A stretch of 63,780 bases of DNA, filler included, from an uncultured Methanosarcinales archaeon (GCA_964550945.1; 3 parts of 3 records of this genome joined end to end with filler, not necessarily neighbours in it), one strand, 5' to 3'. Positions 28,968 to 62,952 are shown, counted from the first letter of the whole stretch. Notes: generated by a model not told the origin, from the sequence alone. Translations and numbers: made by a program.

Positions 28968-29067
28968 NNNNNNNNNNNNNNNNNNNNNNNNNNNNNNNNN
29001 NNNNNNNNNNNTTAATTAATTAANNNNNNNNNNNNNNNNNNNNNNNNNNNNNNNNNNNNNNNNNNNN
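28968..29067. other. Artificial contig linker (N44-TTAATTAATTAA-N44)
   Basis: Six-frame stop spacer; adjacency across it is not biological evidence. Confidence 0.97.
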
Positions 29068-35483: not shown

Positions 35484-35744
35484 ATGGAGATAACGATTAA
35501 TTTTGGGTTTAGAAACCTAAACCAATGGAGAGATTCCCCAAAAAGAGCAGAGCATGTTGTTGACAGGATGATTTTAAGAGGGATTGGCAAATCCCAAATA
35601 TTGGAAGCCATCAAAAGAGGCGCAAAAAGAATAAGAGAAGACGGATCATTGATAGTGGAGTATAAGTGGTTCAAGCTTGTTTACAGGGAATTTAGAACTA
35701 ATGAGTTTACAAAAATATATCCTATCACTGTTTACGAAATATAG
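35484..35744 (+). CDS. Putative toxin (DUF4258/BrnT-RelE-like)
   Basis: EHVVDRMILRGI and terminal ITVY; directly upstream of an antitoxin-like gene. Confidence 0.65.
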   Translation: MEITINFGFRNLNQWRDSPKRAEHVVDRMILRGIGKSQILEAIKRGAKRIREDGSLIVEYKWFKLVYREFRTNEFTKIYPITVYEI

Positions 35745-35753
35745 GTGAGGCAT

Positions 35754-36092
35754 ATGAAAAAAATAAATTATCCATGTCCATGCGGCGGAAAAATAAAATG
35801 GAAAAAAGACAGAGTAGTAATGGAAGGAATAGATTGCGGAATATTAGATGTTGAATATTGCGAAAACTGCGGAGAGGAATATTTGTCAGAAGACAGCATG
35901 GACATAGTAGAAGACAAGCTGAAAAAAGCTGGTTTGTGGGGTATTAAAAGGAAAGAAGTCAAGTTCTGGAAGTCAGGAAGCTCTGTTACAATAAGATTAC
36001 CTACGGAGTTTAGCAGAGAACTAGGATTAGACAAAATCAAGAAAGGGCATGTATATCAGGATGGAGAGCATAAGCTCGCAATCGAATACTGA
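35754..36092 (+). CDS. Putative antitoxin: MqsA/YgiT-like zinc finger + AbrB-like C-terminal domain
   Basis: CPCGG...CENCGEEY; KSGSSVTIRLP. Confidence 0.72.
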   Translation: MKKINYPCPCGGKIKWKKDRVVMEGIDCGILDVEYCENCGEEYLSEDSMDIVEDKLKKAGLWGIKRKEVKFWKSGSSVTIRLPTEFSRELGLDKIKKGHVYQDGEHKLAIEY

Positions 36093-36122: not shown

Positions 36123-36537
36123 TTAGGCAACTTGGGTGTAATCTATCATTATTTGACCATTCTCAGTGTGCAATTTCAACTGTACGATTTTATCGTACGC
36201 TTCAAACCCTTCTTCTTTAAGTTTAATCTTTAAATCTGACCAATACCTTTTAGGAATAGATCTATCAGTTAAAACTGCAACTATATCAATAATCGAGAAA
36301 TACCAGTGGTTGTCATGCCATAATCTCCTAACTTGTTTCCCTTGAAATACGACTAATGCCTTATTTGAATCAATTTTGTCAAAAACCACTCATCAAAGAG
36401 AGGTGGCATGTTTGAAGCCACCCTGATTTTATAGTGGTTTTTGAGCATGCTCAGAAACTTACCATACTACGAAAATTGAAAACAAGCAAAGCTTGCCACT
36501 AGTCATAGATTAGGTGGTAAGTTTCTGACATATCCAT
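36123..36537 (-). pseudogene. Bro-N / phage antirepressor-like gene, interrupted near its 5' end and truncated at the 3' end
   Basis: KALVVFQGKQVRRLWH..WYFSIIDIVAVLTD..RYWSDLK; TATA box 36561-36568 lies ~24 nt from ATG 36537, and the hairpin element separates that ATG from the rest of the frame. Confidence 0.75.
36377..36533. mobile_element. Twin-hairpin palindromic element, copy 1 (centre TGAGCATGCTCA 36442-36453)
   Basis: TCAAAAACCACT/AGTGGTTTTTGA and TCAGAAACTTACCA/TGGTAAGTTTCTGA stems; TGTCA...TGACA ends; mobility is inferred. Confidence 0.7.
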
Positions 36538-36571
36538 AACAAGCTAGGAAGAAAAGGGTGTTTATATAGCT

Positions 36572-36596
36572 TACGCGTCAATGTCCAGTGCTAATG
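36572..36596 (-). promoter_or_regulatory. Conserved 25-bp motif CATTAGCACTGGACATTGACGCGTA upstream of a TATA box
   Basis: 24/25 identical to 58225-58249 with the same spacing to the TATA box. Confidence 0.65.
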
Positions 36597-36891
36597 TGAA
36601 GGTTTCAGATGAATTGGGTACTAACATTCATAGATGGAACAAAACTTTAAACTAAACTCTCAAACCCGTTTCAATAAATCTCATTTTCCTATCCTCAACA
36701 GAGAACTTACTATAAACATGAGAATAAGTCCGAAAGGAGGGTGGCAATTTGCCCCCACCCCTCAGCAAATCCTTACCCAGCTTATTTCTCCAACCAATGA
36801 TTGGAGTTTTTGGTTAGAGATAACTTCATTCTAACCTTTTCTCTTCAAAAAACAACAATCAATATAAACAAGTTCTTTTACTAATAAAACC

Positions 36892-37272
36892 ATGCAACTA
36901 ACTTACCCATGCACAGATAAAGGCCCTCATTGCATCAATTGCCATGACCATTTTATGGAATTAAGGCCTTTGGTTAAAGAAGTCATTATCTCACATCATT
37001 TTAAGAAAGACCTAAAAGATGAAAAAGTAATAAGCCAAATTGTGCAAACTATTCTGGATTGCAATCATATAGCATTTCACGAGCTCCATAAGTTCGAGGA
37101 AGATATAGGGGGAAATTTCATCTTCAGGGCAAAAAAAGACAAATTACATTATGTTTACTGCATTGACAAAACCAAAAGGATCATCTTTTTAAGGAGTTTT
37201 AAAAATTTTAATGAATACAAAAAGTTTTTAGAGGATAAAAAAGGAATAAAGAGAGTAATCTCTGAGAATTAG
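36892..37272 (+). CDS. RelE/YafQ-like toxin-fold protein with N-terminal Cys/His cluster
   Basis: IISHHFKKDLK, FRAK..HYVY..IIFLRSF..Y pattern; C-x6-CxxCxxH. Confidence 0.6.
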   Translation: MQLTYPCTDKGPHCINCHDHFMELRPLVKEVIISHHFKKDLKDEKVISQIVQTILDCNHIAFHELHKFEEDIGGNFIFRAKKDKLHYVYCIDKTKRIIFLRSFKNFNEYKKFLEDKKGIKRVISEN

Positions 37273-37328
37273 ACATTAGTTACTATTAGAACGATAGATT
37301 TTTAAATAGATTATTTCAACCATTTTGT

Positions 37329-38960
37329 ATGGGAAAGTCAGATATAGAAATAGCACAATCAATTGAACTAGAGCCTATTAAGAATATTGCTGAAAAGATA
37401 GGCATACATAACCATATAATCCTATATGGGGATAATATTGCTAAGGTTCCTCATTCTTTATTAAAAAAATTACCGGAAAGGGACTCTAAACTGGTTTTGG
37501 TCACAGCCGTCACACCAACAAAATTCGGAGAAGGAAAATCAACAACAACAATTGGACTAGGCCAGGCATTAAACCAATTAGGAAAAAAAGCAATCGTTTG
37601 TATGAGGGAGCCAAGTTTAGGTCCTGTCTTTGGAGTTAAGGGCGGCGCTTGTGGAGGAGGCTATAGCCAAGTGCTGCCGATGGAGGATATCAATCTGCAT
37701 TTTACAGGAGACATCCATGCAGTAACCACAGCAAACAATCTACTCTCTGCCCTTATTGATAACCATATGTACCAAGGCAATAAGCTTAGGATAGATGAAA
37801 AAAGAGTTACTTGGAAGCGAGTTTTGGATATCAATGACCGGGCTTTAAGAAAAGTTATGGTGGGCCTTTCCAGCAAAAAAGAAGTAAAAAGAGAGGATGG
37901 TTTTAAAATAACAGTGGCATCCGAATTAATGGCTGTGATTTGTTTAACTACAGACATTATCGATCTTAAAAAAAGAATCGCTGATATTATTGTTGCCTAC
38001 AATCGTGATGGGGATCCTGTAAAGGTCAAAGACCTTAGATTTGAAGGGGCAATCGCCTCATTATTAAAAAATGCCATTGACCCTAATCTTGTCCAAACAA
38101 TCGAGCATACTCCTGCATTTATCCATGGAGGCCCATTTGCAAATATCGCTCATGGGTGTAACAGCATAATCGCCACAAAGCTTGCGTTAAAATTAGGCGA
38201 CATTGTTGTAACAGAAGCTGGTTTTGGCGCTGATCTGGGGGCTGAAAAATTTTTTGACATCAAATGCAGAACCGGAAACCTAAAGCCTAATGCAGCTGTC
38301 TTAGTGGTTACAATAAGGGCTTTGAAATTGCATGGTGAAGGGAACTTAGAACAAGCGTTGCCTAACCTGGAAAAGCATATAGAAAATATTCAAAAATTTG
38401 GAGTGCCTCTTGTTGTTGCCATTAATAAATTCACAAATGACCGCACTGAAGAAATAAATAAGATTATCGATTTCTGTAAGAAAAAGGGCGTAAAATTTTC
38501 ATTGTCAGAAGCGCATGCAAAAGGGGGCAAAGGAGCATTGGACTTAGCAAATAAAATTTTACAATTGATAGAGAATGACGGATCCAAATTCCAATTCCTA
38601 TACCCCTTAAATATCCCTGTTAAATCCAAAATTGAAATGATAGCAAAAGAGCTATACGGAGCAGACGGGGTCAATTATGATGATGAGGCTGAAGAAAATA
38701 TTGCCTTGATAAAAAAATTAAAATTAGAGCATCTGCCTGTGTGCATGGCAAAAACACAGATGAGCCTAAGCGATAACCCTTCATTATTAGGCAGGCCAAT
38801 CGGCTTTAAAATAAATGTAAAAAGGTTATCTCCTTGTACTGGAGCAGGATTTATTGTGGCCTATTGCGGAGACATAATGGTCATGCCAGGCATGCCAGAG
38901 CATCCAGCTGCTGAGCTGATTGATATAGATAAAGATGGAAAGATATCCGGATTATTTTGA
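37329..38960 (+). CDS. fhs: Formate--tetrahydrofolate ligase
   Basis: [48 protein letters not shown]. Confidence 0.97.
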
Positions 38961-39710
38961 TTATCTTATTTTAGGAATTGATTCAATCAACAAGCTTGTG
39001 ACCTTCTCAACATTCTCGCCAAAAACTTTTAGGATCTCTTCCCAAGTTACCGGAGGTATATCATCAAAAAGGCAGTCATAATCAGTTGACATTGCAATTG
39101 CCGCATAAGGGATTCCAGCTTCATTTGCCAATATTGCTTCTGGCGCAACACTCATGTTGATCACATCAGCGCCCCATTGCCTGAACATCCTTGATTCAGC
39201 TCTGGTCGAGAATCTTGGGCCTTCTATTGTAACAACAGTCCCTTTTTCATGATGCTTAATATTCAGCTCTTGTGCGGTATTTATCAGGATTTTTCTTAGC
39301 TCCTTATTAAATGGGTCGGGCATTGCCACGTGTGTTGGCTTGTGAGGCTCAAATTTGTCATAAAATGTTATTTTCCTATGCCTTGTAAAATCTATAAACT
39401 GGTCCAGTATAACTAAATCCCCTCGTTCGATATCCCTTCTGAGGCTGCCGCAGGCAGTTGTTGCTAGAATATGTGTAACTCCTTGCTTTTTTAGTGCATC
39501 TATATTAGCCCGAAAATTGACTTCAGTAGGAGGGCATGTATGCTCTCTGCCATGCCTTGCGATCAAAACACAATCAACACCCTTAATCCTGCCAATTTTC
39601 AATTTACAAGTGGGCTTTCCATAAGGAGTATCAACGTCAATATCCTTTTCATCTTTCAAAATTTTTGGATTATCTAATCCAGACCCGCCAATTATCCCTA
39701 TTTTAACCAT
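38961..39710 (-). CDS. mtnP: S-methyl-5'-thioadenosine phosphorylase
   Basis: IGIIGGSG, RHG..H..PP, EGPRFSTRAES, INMS, STDYD. Confidence 0.93.
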   Translation of the reverse strand: MVKIGIIGGSGLDNPKILKDEKDIDVDTPYGKPTCKLKIGRIKGVDCVLIARHGREHTCPPTEVNFRANIDALKKQGVTHILATTACGSLRRDIERGDLVILDQFIDFTRHRKITFYDKFEPHKPTHVAMPDPFNKELRKILINTAQELNIKHHEKGTVVTIEGPRFSTRAESRMFRQWGADVINMSVAPEAILANEAGIPYAAIAMSTDYDCLFDDIPPVTWEEILKVFGENVEKVTSLLIESIPKIR

Positions 39711-39721
39711 AAAACCACCAC

Positions 39722-39928
39722 CTATAACAATCTATGATACCCTGCCCTAATAAAAAATAAAATAAATGCCAATATAGCGATTAAAAACACTACAGCAGTG
39801 CTTATTATGACAATGCCCCACATCTTTAGCTTTGGATGATATCTTGAAAATATTAAGACTATTATTCCGAATACCAGCAAAAAAATAAAGCTTGCGGTTA
39901 TTTCAACTACTCCTATCCCATAAGGAAT
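39722..39928 (-). CDS. Small 2-TM membrane protein (68 aa) with probable ATT start (not in ORF track)
   Basis: GAGGT SD 7 nt before ATT CCT TAT; the open frame fills the ZPR1-mtnP gap; two hydrophobic helices. Confidence 0.55.
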   Translation of the reverse strand: MPYGIGVVEITASFIFLLVFGIIVLIFSRYHPKLKMWGIVIISTAVVFLIAILAFILFFIRAGYHRLL

Positions 39929-39956
39929 TTTAACTACCTCTTTTTTAGGTTATTAT

Positions 39957-40469
39957 TTACAATCTAGTCTTAATAGCCCTATCGCTGATTATAGCAGAGT
40001 TGCCGCTAGGATCTTCTATGATGATCTTCTGCTTTTCCTGTCCCCACCTAATCCTTGTTAACTTCTTTAGCAAATTTTTCGCTTTTTTCTTAACTTCTTC
40101 ATCTTCTTCGTCATTCTTTGCTATCTCAATGCTGTGCTTAACCCTGTTTAATACGCCTTCAATATTGGTTATGTAACCATTTGAGGCAGCGCCTGGCTCT
40201 ATTGTTGTTATATGCGGAATTTTAACAGTAGCTTCGCTTGATTTTACTACTCTAACTTTCATATCGTCTTCTTTTTCTATCTCAAATGTGAATTTGCAAG
40301 GCTCTTTTTTTTCTAAAGATTCAATATCAGCTTTATGGTATTTGCAGTTAGAGCAAGTCATTGAGAATAAGGCCATCTTCCCAAAATAAGGCACTTCCAT
40401 CTCATCCTCTGTGAGCACTAAGGTCTTCTGCCTGCACATCGGGCAAATCTCATGTTCAATTTTTTCCAT
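39957..40469 (-). CDS. ZPR1 zinc finger protein
   Basis: CPMC...PYFG..CSNCKY, TNIEG, IEDPSGNS. Confidence 0.95.
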   Translation of the reverse strand: MEKIEHEICPMCRQKTLVLTEDEMEVPYFGKMALFSMTCSNCKYHKADIESLEKKEPCKFTFEIEKEDDMKVRVVKSSEATVKIPHITTIEPGAASNGYITNIEGVLNRVKHSIEIAKNDEEDEEVKKKAKNLLKKLTRIRWGQEKQKIIIEDPSGNSAIISDRAIKTRL

Positions 40470-40509
40470 AAGATTGAAGTAGAATAATCCTATTTATATC
40501 TTTCGTTTT

Positions 40510-41757
40510 CTAGTTGTTAGTAAAAGGCACAATGGTTATTACCTTTCTCGCGATTTCAGGGTGTTTATACACAAATAACAGCTCCTCTTCTGTTAATGGC
40601 TTTTGCGTATGTACATTAGCAAATCTTACCAGCTCTAATACCTTCTTAGCTTCGTTTTCATCTTTAAAAGTTACATTCATCTCCCCGTACACATGTTTGA
40701 ATCCCTTTATTCCCCCATATTCCCCTGTTGTTATCTTCCTTCCAGTTTCAACTTGAACTATTTCTCCTCTTCCAAGCTCTTCAAAATCATAAAGCTCATA
40801 ATTTCTCCTGTCCTTTAGCGCGCCATCCGCATGAATTCCAGACTCGTGGGCAAACGCATTATCACCAACACCTACTTGGTTTATGGGTATTGGAATTTTA
40901 AATGCATAAGAAGCATACTTTGCCAGATTATAAGATTGTTTTAGGTCGATGCCTTTTAAAGCTTTGGAGTATCTATCATTATAACCAGCCGCTTTTTTAA
41001 TTGCCAGGATAACAGATAACATGTCAGCATTTCCAGCCCTTTCTCCAATGCCATTTATAGTTGTATTTATATAAGCGTCTTGCCCGCCATCCAAACATCC
41101 TTTAGCTCCAGCAACAGAATTTGCAACAGCTAATCCCAAATCATTGTGGCCGTGCAATTCAATTGGCAGTTCGACTTTTTCAGCTAATAATTTAATCCTG
41201 TTATAAATGGTAAATGGATCATCAAAGCCAAGCGTATCACAATACCTTATCCTGTCTGCCCCATTATCCTTTGCAGCCAATGCAAATTTATGCAAAAAAG
41301 CATCATCAGTCCTTGAAGCATCTTCAGCATTCACACCAACTGTTTCTATGCCCAACTCTTTTGCTGTTTTTAACGCTTCAACCATAGCATTTAATATATC
41401 CTCCCTTGTTTTCCCGCCAAGAAATTTCCCCATAGTCATTTGTTCTGACGTAGAAATAGACATGTTGATATGCTTTAAATTGGGCACAAGTTTTAGAGAA
41501 GTTTCAACATCTTCTTTAACAGCCCTTATCCATCCGCCTAAACGCATCTTATCAATAACCTTATTTTCAACAAGCTCTAGATTGGCATTAAGGTAGTTGG
41601 TTTCATGATTCGTTGTAGGAAACCCAAACTCTGACTGAAAAACACCCATCCTATTTAATTTTAGATTGAGTATAGTCTTCTCTAGCTTAGCTAATCCTAA
41701 CCTTGCAGTTTGGACTCCGTCCCTGTTTGTTACATCAATTAAATAGATATTGTTCAT
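40510..41757 (-). CDS. Homocitrate-synthase family (DRE-TIM) enzyme, probably Re-citrate synthase
   Basis: DVTNRDGVQ, HGHNDLG, GIGERAGN, AFAHESGIH; operon context with aconitase and IDH. Confidence 0.82.
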   Translation of the reverse strand: MNNIYLIDVTNRDGVQTARLGLAKLEKTILNLKLNRMGVFQSEFGFPTTNHETNYLNANLELVENKVIDKMRLGGWIRAVKEDVETSLKLVPNLKHINMSISTSEQMTMGKFLGGKTREDILNAMVEALKTAKELGIETVGVNAEDASRTDDAFLHKFALAAKDNGADRIRYCDTLGFDDPFTIYNRIKLLAEKVELPIELHGHNDLGLAVANSVAGAKGCLDGGQDAYINTTINGIGERAGNADMLSVILAIKKAAGYNDRYSKALKGIDLKQSYNLAKYASYAFKIPIPINQVGVGDNAFAHESGIHADGALKDRRNYELYDFEELGRGEIVQVETGRKITTGEYGGIKGFKHVYGEMNVTFKDENEAKKVLELVRFANVHTQKPLTEEELLFVYKHPEIARKVITIVPFTNN

Positions 41758-41816
41758 TTAACCCCCTATTGACAACCCAGAAAATACCTCAGATATTTAT
41801 ACCTTTTGATATCATA

Positions 41817-42905
41817 CTAACATTTAATCTCCCTGATTATTGCATCAGCCATCTCCTTAGTGCCTACTGCTTTAGGATCATCCCTTGTTGGCTTTAGGTC
41901 ATATGTGACATATTTTCCCTCACGAATAACCTTTGCAACAGATTTTTCTAATCTTTCAGCAGCTTCTTCCTCGTTGATATACCTTAGCATCATCACTGCA
42001 CTCAATATCAAAGCAGTAGGATTTACCTTATTCAGGCCTTTGTATTTTGGCGCAGAGCCATGTGTTGCCTCAAACACAGCATATTTTTCCCCTATATTCG
42101 CTCCTGGAGCAACACCCAATCCTCCAACCAAGCCTGCGCATAAATCAGAGATTATATCTCCATAAAGGTTTGGCAAAACTAAGATATCATAAAGCTCTGG
42201 TTTCTGGACCAGCTGCATGCACATATTATCAACCAAGACATGCTCAAATGCGATATTAGGATAGTTTTTTGCTGTACTCTCTGCAACATGCTGGAATAAT
42301 CCATCTGAAAATTTCATGATGTTTGATTTGGTAATTGCTGTAACCTTTTTTCTTTTATTTTTTACAGCATAATCAAATGCGAATTCTACTATTCTAGCTG
42401 TTCCGAACCTTGATATTGGCTTTATTGATAGTCCTGAATCAGGCCTTATATTCTTTTTAGTCAATGCTTTAATGCTGTCAATTAAATTCTTTGTCTCTTG
42501 CTTTCCCTCTTCAAATTCGATGCCTGCATAAAGGTCTTCTGTATTCTCTCTAACAATGACAATATCCACATTTTCTGGATTTTTTAACAGCGATTTGGCG
42601 CCAGCATAATACCTGCAAGGCCGGACACAGGCGAAAAGGCCTAGCTCCTGCCGCAGCGCAACATTAACACTCCTAAATCCAGAGCCTATTGGAGTAGTTA
42701 GCGGAGCCTTGATAGCCACTTTATTTTTTTTAATGGATTCAATCACCTGCTCAGGCAATGGAGTGCCATATTTGTCCATGACATCAGCTCCTGCTTCCTG
42801 GACATCCCACTCGATATTAACTCCAGTCGCTTCAACGCATCTTTTCATAGCTTCTGCTATCTCTGGTCCAGTGCCATCTCCTTTGATTAATGTTATTTTA
42901 TGCAT
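41817..42905 (-). CDS. icd: Isocitrate dehydrogenase (isocitrate/isopropylmalate DH family)
   Basis: [51 protein letters not shown]. Confidence 0.88.
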
Positions 42906-44773
42906 GTTTTAATATGGTTTAATGTTCCTCCTGAGATTATGATAGCTATGTCTCTTGGGCTTAGATCATATCTTAGCTCAATACCTTGGTTAGTAACCAA
43001 ATTTTTTTTATTTTTTAATGATTCTATTATTCTACTGATCTCTATTTTATCATCTTGATTAATCTTATTATAATCCTTTTTATTAACAAATTCTAATGGC
43101 AAAATCCCGAAGTTTATTAAATTTGCCTTATGTATCCTTGCGAATGATTTTGCAATAACTGCCTTGATTCCTAAATACATTGGAGCTAATGCTGCATGTT
43201 CTCTTGAGCTTCCCTGGCCATAATTCTCTCCTCCAACAATAAATCCAGGCTTGTTTTCTCTCGCTCTTTTTGAAAAATTAGCGTCAATATTGCTGAATAC
43301 ATACTCGCTAATCCTAGGAATATGCGATCTTAACGGCAATATCTTTGATCCAGCAGGCATAATATCATCAGTAGTTACATTATCCCCTGTTTTTATAAGA
43401 ACAGTTCCTTTTAAATCATCTTTTAATGGATTATTTAATGGTAATTGAGCTATTAGCTCTCCTCTTTGAATCTTAGAGCTGCCCTTTGGATTTATAATCC
43501 CTTTATCATCTATCACAAATCTAACTGGCATCTTGATTTTAGGGTATTTTCCTAGTTTTCTCGGATCTGTAATCTTTCCATTAATGGCAGCAGCAACAGC
43601 AACCTCTGGGGAGCAAAGGTAGTTTAGGTCATCTTTAGTTCCTGACCTTCCTTTAAAGTTTCTATTGAATGTCCTCAAGGTAGCTGTATCTGGTAAAGGG
43701 CTTTGCCCCATCCCTATGCACCCTAGGCAAGCTGGCTCACAGACCTTTGCTTTTCTTAAATATCCAATCAAGCCTTCTTTTTCTAAACTGTCTATAACTT
43801 GTTTAGAGCCAGGGTTGATATTGAAATCAACATCTTCGCTGATATCATACTCTTTCAAGACATTAGCAACCATTGCTAAATCCTTATAGCTTGAATTAGT
43901 GCAAGAGCCAATAATAACCTGTTTTACATCAATGCCCTCAACTTCACTAACCTTCTTTACATTATCAGGTGAAGAAGGCAATGCTATCAAAGGCTCTATC
44001 TTGCTTAGATCAATCTCAATTATTTCATCAAACTCCTCTTCATTCATTTTTGCTTCTTTCCAATCAATCTCTCTGTTTTGCGCAATTAAAAATTCTTTAG
44101 TAACGCTGTCAGACGGGAATACCGAGCTTGTAAGCCCTAGTTCAGCACCCATATTTGTGATTGTTGCTCTTTCTGGAACAGTTAATGTTTTAACTCCTTC
44201 TCCAAAATATTCAAATATTTTGCCAACCCCCCCTTTAACTGTTAATTTTTTTAGGATATGCAGGATTATATCTTTTGCAGAAACCCAGTCATTCAATCTT
44301 CCCTTAAGTTTTATCCCTACTATTTTTGGCATCTTTAGGTAAAAAGGATATCCAGCCATGGCAGCAGCAATATCTAAACCACCTGCTCCAATTGCTATGC
44401 TTCCAATGCCTCCTGCAGTAGGCGTATGGGAATCAGAGCCCACTAATGTTAGGCCAGGCTTGGCAAACCTTTCTAAATGGACCTGATGGCAAATGCCATT
44501 GCCAGGCTCTGAGAACACTATTCCATATCTATCTGCAAATGTCCTAAGAAACTCAATATTTTGCCTGCCTGTTTCAGATATATTATGGTCAACATAGCTT
44601 ACAGATAATTTTGTCTTAACTTTTGGAATGCCTAATGCCTCGAACTGCAGATAAGCCATTGTCCCGGTTGCATCCTGTGTTAAGGTCTGGTCTATTCTTA
44701 TCCCAATTTCATGGCCTTCCTCTAACTTGCCCTCAACTAAATGGACTTTTAATATATCTTTTGTTACTGACAT
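42893..44773 (-). CDS. acn: Aconitate hydratase
   Basis: QDATG, GICHQ, DSHT, GSCTN, CLGCIG, FNRNF, TTDDI, GSSREHA. Confidence 0.93.
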
Positions 44774-44796
44774 GCTTAAGAAAAATAGGTGATATT

Positions 44797-45297
44797 TTAT
44801 AAACTTTTCCTAGCATTAATGAAGAACTCCTTTTGAGCCAGATAATCAGGAAATGTATGCCTGAAAGAGATCACATCATTTTTCTTGAACATAAAAATCA
44901 TATGCCCAAAGATGCCATTTCCTAAACAAATCTTGTACGGCTGTTCTTTTAGTGAAGCCATGATTAGATTGTCTTTTGTCATATATCCTGGGTCAATATT
45001 TACGATTCTTTTGTTTCTTTTCTTTAATTTATCCTCTAAATCTTGCGTATAAATCCTTATCTTCACCAATTCCTCTCTGTTTATCGTTTTTTTAAAAATA
45101 ATGAACCTTTTTTTTAATGATTTCCCAAACTCGGCCTCATAATAATCAGTGAAATTAAAGTCAAACTCCTCACTCTCAAATTCAATCCCACCGAATTTTT
45201 TGATTAATATCTCTCTAACTTTCCTTAAATCATCCTCGCTGGAATACATCAGGGCCATTACTAAGCGAGCTTTTGAAATCTCTTTAAATTCTGCCAT
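44797..45297 (-). CDS. DUF4416-family protein
   Basis: FTDYYEAEFG, RIVNIDPGY, TFPDY. Confidence 0.8.
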   Translation of the reverse strand: MAEFKEISKARLVMALMYSSEDDLRKVREILIKKFGGIEFESEEFDFNFTDYYEAEFGKSLKKRFIIFKKTINREELVKIRIYTQDLEDKLKKRNKRIVNIDPGYMTKDNLIMASLKEQPYKICLGNGIFGHMIFMFKKNDVISFRHTFPDYLAQKEFFINARKSL

Positions 45298-45468
45298 AAC
45301 CACTAGTATTGTCTACTAATATAAAAGAATAACTGTTGCAACATTATAGAAGAATTTATCCTGGCATAATCAATCAACCAACTCTGTCAAACGTATCCAG
45401 GTTTTCATCAATACGCCTTCTTAAGAATCTGCTGCTTTCATGCCAGATCCTATTAGCATACCTGTTTT

Positions 45469-45596
45469 GATATGTCAGAAATATACTGGCCGTCTAATTG
45501 ACTGATGGACAAAGTCCAATACATTTGGTGATTATAGTATATTTATGAGCATGCTCAAGAACACGCCCCCTACTTTAGTGGGGCGGTTCTTGACAT
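45469..45596. mobile_element. Twin-hairpin palindromic element, copy 2 (centre TGAGCATGCTCA 45546-45557)
   Basis: TCAGAAATATACT/AGTATATTTATGA and TCAAGAAC-A-CGCCCC/GGGGCG-GTTCTTGA stems; same GATATGTCAGAAA end as copy 1. Confidence 0.7.
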
Positions 45597-57814: not shown

Positions 57815-57914
57815 NNNNNNNNNNNNNNNNNNNNNNNNNNNNNNNNNNNNNNNNNNNNTTAATTAATTAANNNNNNNNNNNNNNNNNNNNNNNNNNNNNN
57901 NNNNNNNNNNNNNN
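57815..57914. other. Artificial contig linker (N44-TTAATTAATTAA-N44)
   Basis: Six-frame stop spacer. Confidence 0.97.
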
Positions 57915-61310: not shown

Positions 61311-61551
61311 TTTAAATTAATAACTCTAATTGATATTTAATACTTTTTATTTCGATATTTTTATACATGCAAGAGCAGATGGGCAAAGATGTTTTCGAGT
61401 ATGATACTTATGGTTGTCTTACTCACTTGAAAGGACAATTAAAAATAGGTGATTTCACAAATTGAAATCTTAAGAAGGGGACAATTTTTAACGAATAACT
61501 AAACGAACGAGGGGAGTTCCGAACGACGATTACGACTGGGTGCGAGAAAAC

Positions 61552-62952
61552 TTAACCTAAAATTATTTTTTCAACTTCCTTCTTCGCTTTTTCCAGTTCT
61601 TCTTTAGCTTCTTTCTGCAAACTTTCAGCTTTTTGCATTCGTTTTTTTACTTCTTCAGCGATTTTGTTTTGAACAGCAAGAGGAGGCAGAGGGATCTTTA
61701 CATTTCCTAAATCATCAGAATATAAATGAGAGGTTTGTCCTCTTTTTTCTCTATTGACAAACAGATAATACTCATTTAGTTTTAATATAGCTAAAATATA
61801 ATATGGATTAACTTTTTCCGTGTCAGCTCTAATATTTATTAATTCGCCTACAAAATAAATATTTTTCTCTTTAAGATTATTTGGCATCTCAACTATGCAG
61901 GGATTTTTTCCTAAATATTCTCCTTGATGAGCAGAAGATAAGAGCAAAACATCTTTATCCTTTATGGTTTTAACCGCGGGAACACCATCTTTAAAATAAG
62001 AAAGATTATCCCATTTGATTTTATTATGCTTTAAACAGCTTACTTTTAAGATTAAATTGCCTTCCTCTGCGTAATCTTCTTTTGCAGGAGTTTTTCCATT
62101 AAAAATATCTTCTGCAACATCTTTTAATTTAGTTAATGTAATTTTGCTTTTTTGTAAATCTGCAAGAAGTCTTTTAAATTTAGGGTTAAAATAATATGGG
62201 TCATTTCTGCTATTTTCTAATTCCTCTGAATTTATGCAGTATATTTTATCTTCTTTTATTGGTGAGAATTTTATCCCTAATTCATTAAGAACATAATCAT
62301 TTAATGAGTCAAGAAGTTTTAGAGCTTCTGACTCTATTTTCTGTTTTTGTATTATAGCTTTTTCATAAACATCTACTATCTTAGCGTTAAATATGATTGG
62401 AATTGATTTTAAAGCCTCATAATCTAACGCGGGTCGCGTTCCGCCAGTGGCTCGTTTTGTCGCAAGTTTTTCTCCTACATCTGAATTAAGAAATGCAGCT
62501 AATACTTTACTTGTCTCTTCATCTCTAGTTTGAATAACGACTAAATGCTGATTAATATTCCCAACAAAACCTCTAGGTGCAACAGAAGACACCGCCATTC
62601 TACCAACGCCAGTAATTTTAATTAAAAGATTATACTCTTTAACTTGGCTTCTTTTTAACATTCCATCATGGGTTTCTTTATTGATAAATTTGACCTCTTC
62701 AAGATTCAATCCTTCTGGTGTAACGTTCTGTACTCGTAAAAATGTAATACCTTCAGCTTCGTCTGAATAATAGGTCTTAGCTTCTTTTATATCTGGTGTT
62801 GCTCCTCCAGAAATCGAAAGAATATAATCATTAAGTTTCTTCTTTGAGATGCTTTTAATTTTTTTATCTAACTGCGTATATTCTGGTCTGTAAAAATGAC
62901 AGTCAAGTCTTCCCTCAATTTCGTCAGCGAATATAGTAAAACATTCAGGCAT
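61552..62952 (-). CDS. hsdS: Restriction-modification specificity subunit with two TRDs
   Basis: RLDCHFY/RNDPYYF repeats, GATP/GKTP, IPLPPLAVQNKI. Confidence 0.88.
   Translation of the reverse strand: MPECFTIFADEIEGRLDCHFYRPEYTQLDKKIKSISKKKLNDYILSISGGATPDIKEAKTYYSDEAEGITFLRVQNVTPEGLNLEEVKFINKETHDGMLKRSQVKEYNLLIKITGVGRMAVSSVAPRGFVGNINQHLVVIQTRDEETSKVLAAFLNSDVGEKLATKRATGGTRPALDYEALKSIPIIFNAKIVDVYEKAIIQKQKIESEALKLLDSLNDYVLNELGIKFSPIKEDKIYCINSEELENSRNDPYYFNPKFKRLLADLQKSKITLTKLKDVAEDIFNGKTPAKEDYAEEGNLILKVSCLKHNKIKWDNLSYFKDGVPAVKTIKDKDVLLLSSAHQGEYLGKNPCIVEMPNNLKEKNIYFVGELINIRADTEKVNPYYILAILKLNEYYLFVNREKRGQTSHLYSDDLGNVKIPLPPLAVQNKIAEEVKKRMQKAESLQKEAKEELEKAKKEVEKIILG

What the first reader, a model, noticed from the sequence alone, without database searches (positions are those of the whole stretch)
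36377..45596. Family of structure-conserved twin-hairpin elements centred on TGAGCATGCTCA with a conserved bulged base
Seen: two copies (36377-36533 and 45469-45596, opposite orientation) share the layout GATATGTCAGAAA-stem1...stem1'-TGAGCATGCTCA-stem2...stem2'-TGACA. The four hairpins differ in internal sequence yet each pairs. Every one closes as TG-C-TCA/TGA-CA with a single extrahelical base, and stem 1 is capped by a C-AAA-G/C-TTT-G mini-hairpin in both copies. Established: conserved ends, extrahelical bases and variable interiors are how ssDNA hairpins are read by integron integrases (attC) and HUH/Y1 transposases (IS200/IS605 ends, REP/REPIN). Inference: a non-autonomous mobile or recombination element acted on in trans; no cognate enzyme is in this window.
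Basis: partly seen in the sequence, partly recalled or inferred. Interest (0 to 1): 0.8.

Follow-up and report, generated by a model that had tools for sequence, protein, structure and literature searches.

The report
Self-masking IS200-type mini-transposons in DPANN archaea
The twin hairpins are copies of a gene-less mini-transposon common in tiny groundwater archaea: it picks its landing sites by DNA-guide pairing as IS200/IS605 transposons do, shares its end hairpins with one group of IS200-like transposases, and, unusually, folds back to hide both of its own ends.

Summary
It is not attC and not a DDE MITE. Seven empty sites in a congener pair show precise insertion with no target duplication. 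Read on one strand, the long form is a left end and a right end of IS200/IS605 type: each has a subterminal hairpin and a 4-nt DNA guide. The flanking target changes with the guide as the IS608 pairing rule predicts. A covariance model of the element hairpins hits 15 of 20 loci of one divergent Y1 TnpA clade and 0 of 48 other tnpA loci. This genome holds three left and three right ends of that IS type at contig breaks. No earlier description was found for two features: internal complementary copies that fold over both ends with one bulged base, and 52-56 nt guide-less forms that also seem to move. The scan noted this or similar repeats before on other DNA, enzyme unknown. Enzyme action is inferred, not shown. 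Verdict: new variant of a known kind.

The parts
36377..36531 (-). Copy A, whole element (transposing strand is minus; limits 36378-36531 or 36377-36530, one base of ambiguity)
   Evidence: register from empty sites
36532..36535 (-). Copy A target tetranucleotide GGAT in the flank (guide CTTA predicts AGnT; first position is a G.T wobble)
36518..36521 (-). Copy A left guide CTTA
36496..36517 (-). Copy A left subterminal hairpin (IPL-like)
   Evidence: model R1 hit 36494-36521, E 0.034
36483..36495 (-). Copy A C-TTT-G side mini-hairpin
36448..36464 (-). Copy A internal complement of the left end (anti-LE), with the bulged base
36434..36447 (-). Copy A internal complement of the right end (anti-RE), with the bulged base; anti-LE and anti-RE abut to make the central palindrome 36442-36453
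36407..36410 (-). Copy A right guide CATG
36386..36406 (-). Copy A right subterminal hairpin (IPR-like)
   Evidence: model R1 hit 36384-36410, E 0.033
36378..36381 (-). Copy A right cleavage tetranucleotide TGAC (as guide CATG predicts)
45472..45595 (+). Copy B, whole element (transposing strand is plus; 45472-45594 or 45473-45595)
45468..45471 (+). Copy B target tetranucleotide TGAT in the flank (guide TATA predicts TAnT; second position is a G.T wobble)
45482..45485 (+). Copy B left guide TATA
45486..45508 (+). Copy B left subterminal hairpin, decayed (not hit by R1)
45507..45517 (+). Copy B C-AAA-G side mini-hairpin
45537..45562 (+). Copy B anti-LE and anti-RE around the central palindrome 45546-45557
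45562..45565 (+). Copy B right guide CACG
45566..45586 (+). Copy B right subterminal hairpin, second type (TTTA loop); close to right ends next to tnpA in L282, L289, L293
45591..45594 (+). Copy B right cleavage tetranucleotide TGAC (as guide CACG predicts)

Best explanation
A non-autonomous IS200/IS605-type element, moved as single-stranded DNA by a Y1 HUH transposase supplied in trans. Most likely that enzyme belongs to the divergent TnpA clade of L298/L410, whose multi-copy IS has collapsed out of this assembly. Shown: no gene, polarity, precise insertion without duplication, subterminal hairpins with guides, targets that switch with the guide, and end hairpins shared with that clade. Inferred by analogy with IS608/ISDra2: TnpA binds the two inner hairpins on ssDNA, cuts next to the guide-paired tetranucleotides, makes a circle and inserts 3' of a new guide-matched target. 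Also inferred: the internal complements fold over each end in the resting single strand, hiding guide and cleavage site, so only a transient alternative fold can be cut. The 52-56 nt forms arise by loss of the arm interiors; how they move is unexplained.
For: Empty sites: of 41 elements tested between congeners G164 and G076, 7 show removal of exactly the element with no duplication. No 2-9 nt duplication in 109 complete copies. A conserved flank at one end only. Proximal-guide left ends: 136 of 177 rule matches in 59 copies, permutation mean 89.9, z 7.5. A second subfamily with the guide before a different hairpin: fourth base matches in 16 of 19, permutation mean 7.7, 1 of 20000. Right ends: CATG goes with TGAC in 55 of 58 and CACG in 7 of 7 regex hits. 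Model R1, built from 52 element hairpins of other genomes, hits 15 of 20 loci of the L298 clade and 0 of 48 other tnpA loci at E <= 0.05. In that clade's ends and in sister elements of this genome the rule holds for 17 of 18 left and 22 of 22 right ends; 0 of 10000 permutations reach either. This genome has three such left ends and three right ends at contig breaks; the right ends are preceded by codons for F-C-D-stop, the same C-terminus as the TnpA of L410. The clade has HUH and Y---Q motifs and matches PF01797 above cut-off. Pairing rule: passages of PMC3201880 and PMC5934647.
Against: No intact tnpA of that clade was found in this genome, nor in high-copy carriers G009 and G164; only 4 of its 18 host genomes carry the exact central pattern. 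No tnpA was seen flanked by the TGTCA-type termini themselves. PF01797 co-occurs only weakly with the element: 24 of 49 carriers against 112 of 352 others, p 0.024, kin not independent. The rule is loose at target positions 1-2 (guide TTTT: A at position 1 in 9 of 29; guide TATA: A at position 2 in 9 of 22). A simple antiparallel pairing scores nearly as well on the proximal set (z 6.9). Right guide CATT goes with TGAC in 20 of 22 cases, a mismatch at position 4. The most stable fold hides guides and cleavage sites. The minimal forms have no guide or inner hairpin. Type-2 right hairpins such as copy B's resemble ends of a different tnpA group. The cut position is uncertain by one base. 31 of 41 elements had no orthologous flank in the DNA fetched.
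Confidence: 0.75

Rival explanations
1. The family descends from IS200-type ends, but it now spreads by another route: an unknown hairpin-reading nuclease or recombinase recognises the bulged outer stems, and the guide-target match is inherited or produced by flank-to-stem pairing. This is most plausible for the 52-56 nt forms.
For: The minimal forms lack guides yet keep the A-W-A flank (17 of 20 at each A). One shows an empty allele, with diverged flanks (L392). Several sit in the loops of inner hairpins. The bulge is nearly invariant. The antiparallel model reaches z 6.9. Three nested minimal copies fit the other cut register (read by eye).
Against: The target bases are present in the empty alleles, so they are not inherited with the element. 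Rare guides and the distal-guide subfamily follow the crossed IS608 order, not antiparallel pairing. No GIY-YIG or TnpB match in this genome and no recurrent neighbour gene.
Confidence: 0.13
2. An archaeal REP/REPIN system moved by a domesticated RAYT (class 2 TnpA-REP) enzyme; the reading of earlier scan notes.
For: Dispersed, intergenic, paired hairpins with TGTC ends, like the TGTC variant of CGTC REPs (PMC3733652, section 6). A source labels a few clade members RayT.
Against: The element has distinct left and right ends with tetranucleotide targets. The L298 and L302 proteins match the IS200 model (52 and 35 bits, below the cut-off of 55) and not the RAYT model, and their genes lie in IS-like units, not between REP copies. 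PMC6006769/10.1101/279083 says subclass 1.1 (IS200) is the only one seen in Archaea (passage). The CGTC stem, loop and tail layout is not met.
Confidence: 0.06
3. attC-like recombination sites read by a tyrosine recombinase.
For: Folded single-strand hairpins with an extrahelical base and variable interiors. All 5 high-copy carriers tested have a tyrosine recombinase.
Against: So do all 14 control genomes. No cassette arrays or shared orientation; copies are inserted whole at new sites. No integron integrase in this genome. The guide rule has no explanation under this model.
Confidence: 0.02
4. A DDE-transposase MITE with TG...CA terminal inverted repeats.
For: 9-10 nt inverted termini that begin TG and end CA.
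Against: No target duplication in 109 copies or in 7 empty sites; a one-sided target motif.
Confidence: 0.02
5. A conserved regulatory RNA or terminator.
For: Intergenic (22 of 23 complete copies lie outside long ORFs), with covarying stems.
Against: Present or absent between congeners; no fixed gene context; no excess between convergent genes (3 of 20 polar copies); no Rfam match worth the name.
Confidence: 0.02

Closest known systems
PATEs (palindrome-associated transposable elements) of Haloquadratum, PMC3119063; PATE-like ISGst derivatives, PMC10055086
   Same: No gene, near-terminal palindromes related to IS200/IS605 ends, no target duplication, short terminal-only versions near 52 bp that may move (passages).
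   Different: PATEs are defined as lacking terminal inverted repeats; these copies have them, plus internal complements that fold over both ends with a bulge. Here the guide-target pairs vary widely within one family.
IS608 and ISDra2 (IS200/IS605 family, Y1 TnpA)
   Same: Left/right polarity, guide 5' of the hairpin foot, crossed pairing with a tetranucleotide, target kept in the left flank, no duplication (against 67, 70, 77, 115).
   Different: No tnpA or tnpB inside; ends masked by complements; cut register uncertain by one base; position-4 mismatch tolerated at many right ends.
SMR-A small mobile repeats of Haloquadratum (PMC3119063)
   Same: About 110 bp, terminal inverted repeats, no duplication, insert into the palindromes of PATEs and IS605; mechanism called enigmatic (passages). 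The nested minimal copies here behave alike.
   Different: Sequences could not be compared (supplements unreadable). Loop targeting is not general here (1 of 20 minimal copies, 0.9 expected).
CGTC/TGTC-tagged REPs and REPIN/BIME doublets (PMC3733652)
   Same: Dispersed intergenic paired palindromes, mostly heterodimers, TGTC tag.
   Different: There, 8-9 bp stems, 4-5 nt loops, CCA tails and no known transposase; here, true IS ends with guides and a candidate IS200-type TnpA clade.
Integron attC sites (recalled)
   Same: ssDNA hairpin with extrahelical base and variable interior.
   Different: No cassettes, no IntI, whole-element insertion, guide-directed target.

Membership tests
IS200/IS605-type non-autonomous element | Subterminal hairpin at each end | tested here: met
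   Long form: (57 two-sided changes against 16.7 shuffled). Minimal forms lack them.
IS200/IS605-type non-autonomous element | 4-nt guide 5' of the left hairpin pairs with a target tetranucleotide kept in the flank | tested here: met
   target present in empty alleles. Loose at positions 1-2.
IS200/IS605-type non-autonomous element | Right guide pairs with the terminal tetranucleotide | tested here: met
   CATG and CACG go with TGAC, AATC with TTAG; CATT mismatches at position 4 in 20 of 22.
IS200/IS605-type non-autonomous element | No target-site duplication, precise insertion | tested here: met
   (7 exact empty sites; one base of register ambiguity).
IS200/IS605-type non-autonomous element | Cognate Y1 TnpA with matching ends in the host | tested here: inconclusive
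   Matching ends flank one clade; ends and a matching C-terminal stub at contig breaks of this genome; no whole gene found.
IS200/IS605-type non-autonomous element | ssDNA circle and donor joint formed by TnpA | not testable with these tools
   Needs biochemistry or junction reads.
PATE in the sense of PMC3119063 | No terminal inverted repeats | tested here: not met
   9-10 nt inverted termini in all complete copies; so PATE-like, not filed as PATE.
PATE in the sense of PMC3119063 | Too short to code; palindromes near both termini; no duplication | tested here: met
   52-255 nt.
SMR-A | Inverted termini, no duplication, strong preference for palindromes of PATE/IS605 | tested here: inconclusive
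   First two met. Nested cases seen by eye, but no general excess of flanking hairpins. Sequences not comparable.
REP/REPIN with RAYT | Class 2 RAYT gene flanked by the repeats | tested here: not met
   No tnpA flanked by the element; candidate clade does not match the RAYT model.
CGTC-tagged REP | Unpaired tag, 8-9 bp stem, 4-5 nt loop, CCA tail | tested here: not met
   The TGTC end is paired and arm interiors run from 0 to over 150 nt.
Integron attC | Sites bounding gene cassettes in arrays, integron integrase in the genome | tested here: not met
DDE MITE | Target-site duplication | tested here: not met

The most novel reading that the evidence does not exclude
The folded-back ends are a built-in DNA switch and a second recognition mode. 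The long element rests in a masked fold and is cut only in a transient open fold, while the bulged outer hairpins alone let 52-56 nt guide-less copies use the same TnpA to jump, including into the end hairpins of other IS200 elements. That would be a new guide-independent mode of Y1 transposition, would supply the missing mechanism for SMR-A-like repeats, and might explain the many double-hairpin repeats of DPANN archaea.
Probability: 0.3. Interest if true: 0.82.

Novelty: new variant of a known kind. Interest (0 to 1): 0.6.

Why it matters
It ties an abundant, so far orphan repeat family of DPANN archaea to a specific IS200-like transposase clade and gives testable cut sites. It is also a natural library of DNA-guided retargeting: at least eight left-end guide/target pairs on one hairpin scaffold (element guides TATA, TTTT, CTTT, CTTA, CAAT, CACA, CACG; related IS ends AATT, TATT), where the IS608 retargeting in the papers read was by engineering. 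The masked ends and the guide-less minimal forms make an old open question, how SMR-A-type repeats move, directly testable in vitro.

Tried and rejected
Rfam on window 29068-57800: one chance hit (E 0.41). Viral contigs: 0 hits for the pattern and no relative of the candidate TnpA. The tnpA type present in this genome (L001, L002) was the first candidate and was rejected: in the part of the 80 metagenome loci that I saw it has other ends, and R1 hit none of the loci of this type searched (L012, L278, L281, L296); it is in 25 of 401 genomes at E <= 1e-25. GIY-YIG and TnpB zinc-ribbon searches in this genome: none. Neighbour-gene clustering of 805 ORFs: no enzyme recurs. First empty-site search around G009 among 30 relatives: none close enough. 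Sequence-only nhmmer profiles of the short hairpins were too weak (1 of 18 hits) and were replaced by a descriptor (17 of 35 clade flanks against 21 of 253 others) and the covariance model. The blind fold-based guide caller is noisy: 208 of 354 matches, z 8.6, many miscalled feet. The regex table of right ends holds many chance hairpins among its 197 rows. Two false positives were kept in the 19 rows, and that regex was designed after seeing some flanks. L279 was left out because it carries an element copy about 2 kb from its tnpA; L298, L300, L302-L304 were left out (four duplicate clade loci, one fragment). Four bacterial hits of the collection scan (L042, L069, L099, L110) lack the hairpins and were taken as chance; L065 has the element on a 1.7-kb contig and may be misbinned. 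Sequencing runs: 7 DNA holders, no RNA holder listed; no read-level evidence of excision was obtained. Paper searches found no description of this family or of masked IS200 ends, and search 113 none on DGR with transposase in Woesearchaeota; subscription journals and ISfinder were not searched. The supplements of PMC3119063 (PATE and SMR sequences) could not be read and may bear on novelty.
Full report
Observation. The window is three contigs joined by N spacers; the finding lies in contig C13. Both copies are as described. Three arms fold at z -4.4 to -6.5; one arm of copy B is weak. The genome (1.97 Mb, 177 contigs) has 28 exact central palindromes and 112 hairpin units against 1 in each control; 102 have exactly one bulged base. 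Variable stem positions pair in 90-99% of 218 arms against 29-50% expected (selection favours pairing). 22 of 23 complete copies lie outside long ORFs (crude ORF calls).

Distribution. An 18-nt pattern occurs in 49 of 401 genomes of the order, control 0 (three carriers, G128, G195 and G319, are unpublished). None was found in viral contigs. No neighbouring gene family recurs.

Anatomy. 109 complete copies measure 52-255 nt; 85 are heterodimers of a G-type and an A-type arm. Only the G-type end has a conserved flank, so the element is polar. Read from that end, the long form runs: target, TGTCAGAAA, 4-nt guide, 9-bp hairpin, side hairpin, complement of the left end, complement of the right end, spacer, guide CAnG, 9-bp hairpin, 4 nt, TGAC. 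The inner hairpins covary (57 two-sided changes against 16.7 shuffled). The central palindrome is simply the two complements abutting. 33 of 141 complete copies in a later set have both arms reduced to short stems, mostly with triloops.

Insertion. There is no duplication of 2-9 nt at any offset. Congeners G164 and G076 gave direct proof of mobility. Of 41 elements tested, 31 had no orthologous flank in the DNA fetched (most of G164, part of G076), 9 were empty and 1 was unclear; 7 of the 9 lack exactly the element. One A is shared by both ends, so the limits are uncertain by one base. Right-end variants followed by varied bases favour the IS608 register; three nested minimal copies and compensatory changes of the last two bases favour the other.

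Guide rule. In IS608, guide base 1 pairs with cleavage base 2 and guide base 2 with base 1, and base 3 is unpaired (passages of PMC3201880 and PMC5934647). The 4:4 pair is recalled and fits the guide and cleavage sequences printed there. In 59 left ends the rule gives 136 of 177 matches against 89.9 by permutation (z 7.5); a simple antiparallel model gives z 6.9. Rare guides separate the two: CTTA, TTTA and TATG follow the crossed rule (read by eye). A second subfamily, with its guide before another hairpin, matches at position 4 in 16 of 19 (1 of 20000 permutations; two false hits kept; regex made after seeing some data). A blind fold-based caller agrees but is noisy. The target bases are in the empty alleles, so this is target choice, not inheritance. 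Against the rule: positions 1-2 are loose, and right guide CATT goes with TGAC in 20 of 22 cases. PMC10055086 used the same covariation argument for ISGst ends (passage).

Enzyme. Y1 TnpA in general co-occurs only weakly with the element (24 of 49 against 112 of 352, p 0.024). The tnpA type assembled in this genome has other ends. A divergent clade (L298; PF01797 above cut-off, just under the NCBIfam IS200 cut-off, no RAYT match, nearest solved structures named transposase) has end hairpins like the element's. Model R1, built without sequences of this genome or of the clade, hits 15 of 20 clade loci and 0 of 48 other tnpA loci at E <= 0.05 (L413 comes from the unpublished G293). The rule holds for 17 of 18 left and 22 of 22 right ends of that clade and of sister elements (spacer length was allowed to vary; L413 is among the right ends). 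No whole gene of the clade is in this assembly, and only 4 of its 18 host genomes carry the exact pattern. But three left ends and three right ends sit at contig breaks with different flanks, and the right ends follow codons for F-C-D-stop as in L410. 101 of 116 listed homologues with a contig length lie on contigs under 2.5 kb (my count), as expected for collapsed IS copies. Many right ends in the clade are wrapped by an outer stem that contains TGAGC/GCTCA; this may be the source of the central palindrome (inference).

Mechanism. Most likely ssDNA peel-and-paste transposition by this TnpA in trans (0.75). The enzymatic steps are inferred. The most stable fold hides both guides and the right cleavage site, so the complements either damp transposition or give a second recognition surface. 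A sister family in this genome has a left-end complement too (C148 type), so the design recurs. The minimal forms keep the A-W-A flank, include one with an empty allele, and sit in hairpin loops in several nested cases, but show no general loop preference.

Comparison and novelty. It works like IS608/ISDra2 derivatives and PATEs, but fails the PATE definition because it has inverted termini, and in the minimal form it resembles SMR-A (PMC3119063, passages; supplements unreadable). It is not attC, a DDE MITE, a CGTC REP (PMC3733652: abstract, passages, sections 6 and 14) or a REPtron (10.1101/279083, passages). Searches found no paper on this family. Earlier scan notes report this family on another piece of this genome and similar double-hairpin repeats in other genomes, enzyme unknown; they are unchecked and are not support. 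Verdict: new variant of a known kind, interest 0.6.

Noticed in passing
L001 (G000:C153) and L002 (G000:C146): Both assembled tnpA genes of this genome lie directly upstream of apparent diversity-generating retroelement cassettes: a target ORF with a variable repeat, a template repeat, then the start of a likely RT. Mismatches fall on template adenines in 11 of 13 and 12 of 13 cases; the RT stubs are too short for a Pfam hit.
   Followed up: partly
L012, L178-L257, L278: That tnpA clade has one conserved end upstream of the gene on the opposite strand (guide GAAA, cleavage TCAT, fitting the rule by eye) and no hairpin after the stop. The sequence turns variable at the stop codon and often runs straight into another ORF, several methylase-like by eye.
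   Followed up: partly
window 61361-61462 (+): C-terminal fragment of that tnpA type, beside an hsdS-like restriction-modification gene at 61552-62952 (the hsdS label is by eye).
   Followed up: no
G000 C31, C46, C144 (contig ends) and C1, C15, C115 (contig starts): Left and right ends of a multi-copy IS200-like element whose body is missing from the assembly.
   Followed up: yes
G000 C148:700-850, C4:53040-53190, C58, C96, C3:24734; C36, C5:2709, C161: Sister non-autonomous families with the same hairpins but other termini; some also carry a left-end complement or a wrapped right end.
   Followed up: partly
L041, L054, L066, L080, L093, L116, L120, L147, L150: A minimal copy sits in the middle of another multi-copy element with two IS200-type hairpins and has spread with it.
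   Followed up: partly
L258:16739-16892 (G164:C7): An unrelated 150-nt palindromic insertion, absent from G076, with an apparent 12-13 nt target duplication.
   Followed up: no
L034:1585-1695 (G027:C43): An IS200 end hairpin interrupted by a decayed insertion that resembles the minimal element.
   Followed up: no
window 36123-36389 (-) and 35484-36092 (+): An 88-aa ORF whose predicted start overlaps the right end of copy A; a longer homologue (288 aa) lies next to another copy at C40. Beside it is a small DUF4258 plus YgiT-finger gene pair that looks like a toxin-antitoxin module (weak hits).
   Followed up: no
whole window: The window joins contigs C11, C13 and C99 with N spacers, so gene order across 28968-29067 and 57815-57914 is artificial.
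   Followed up: yes
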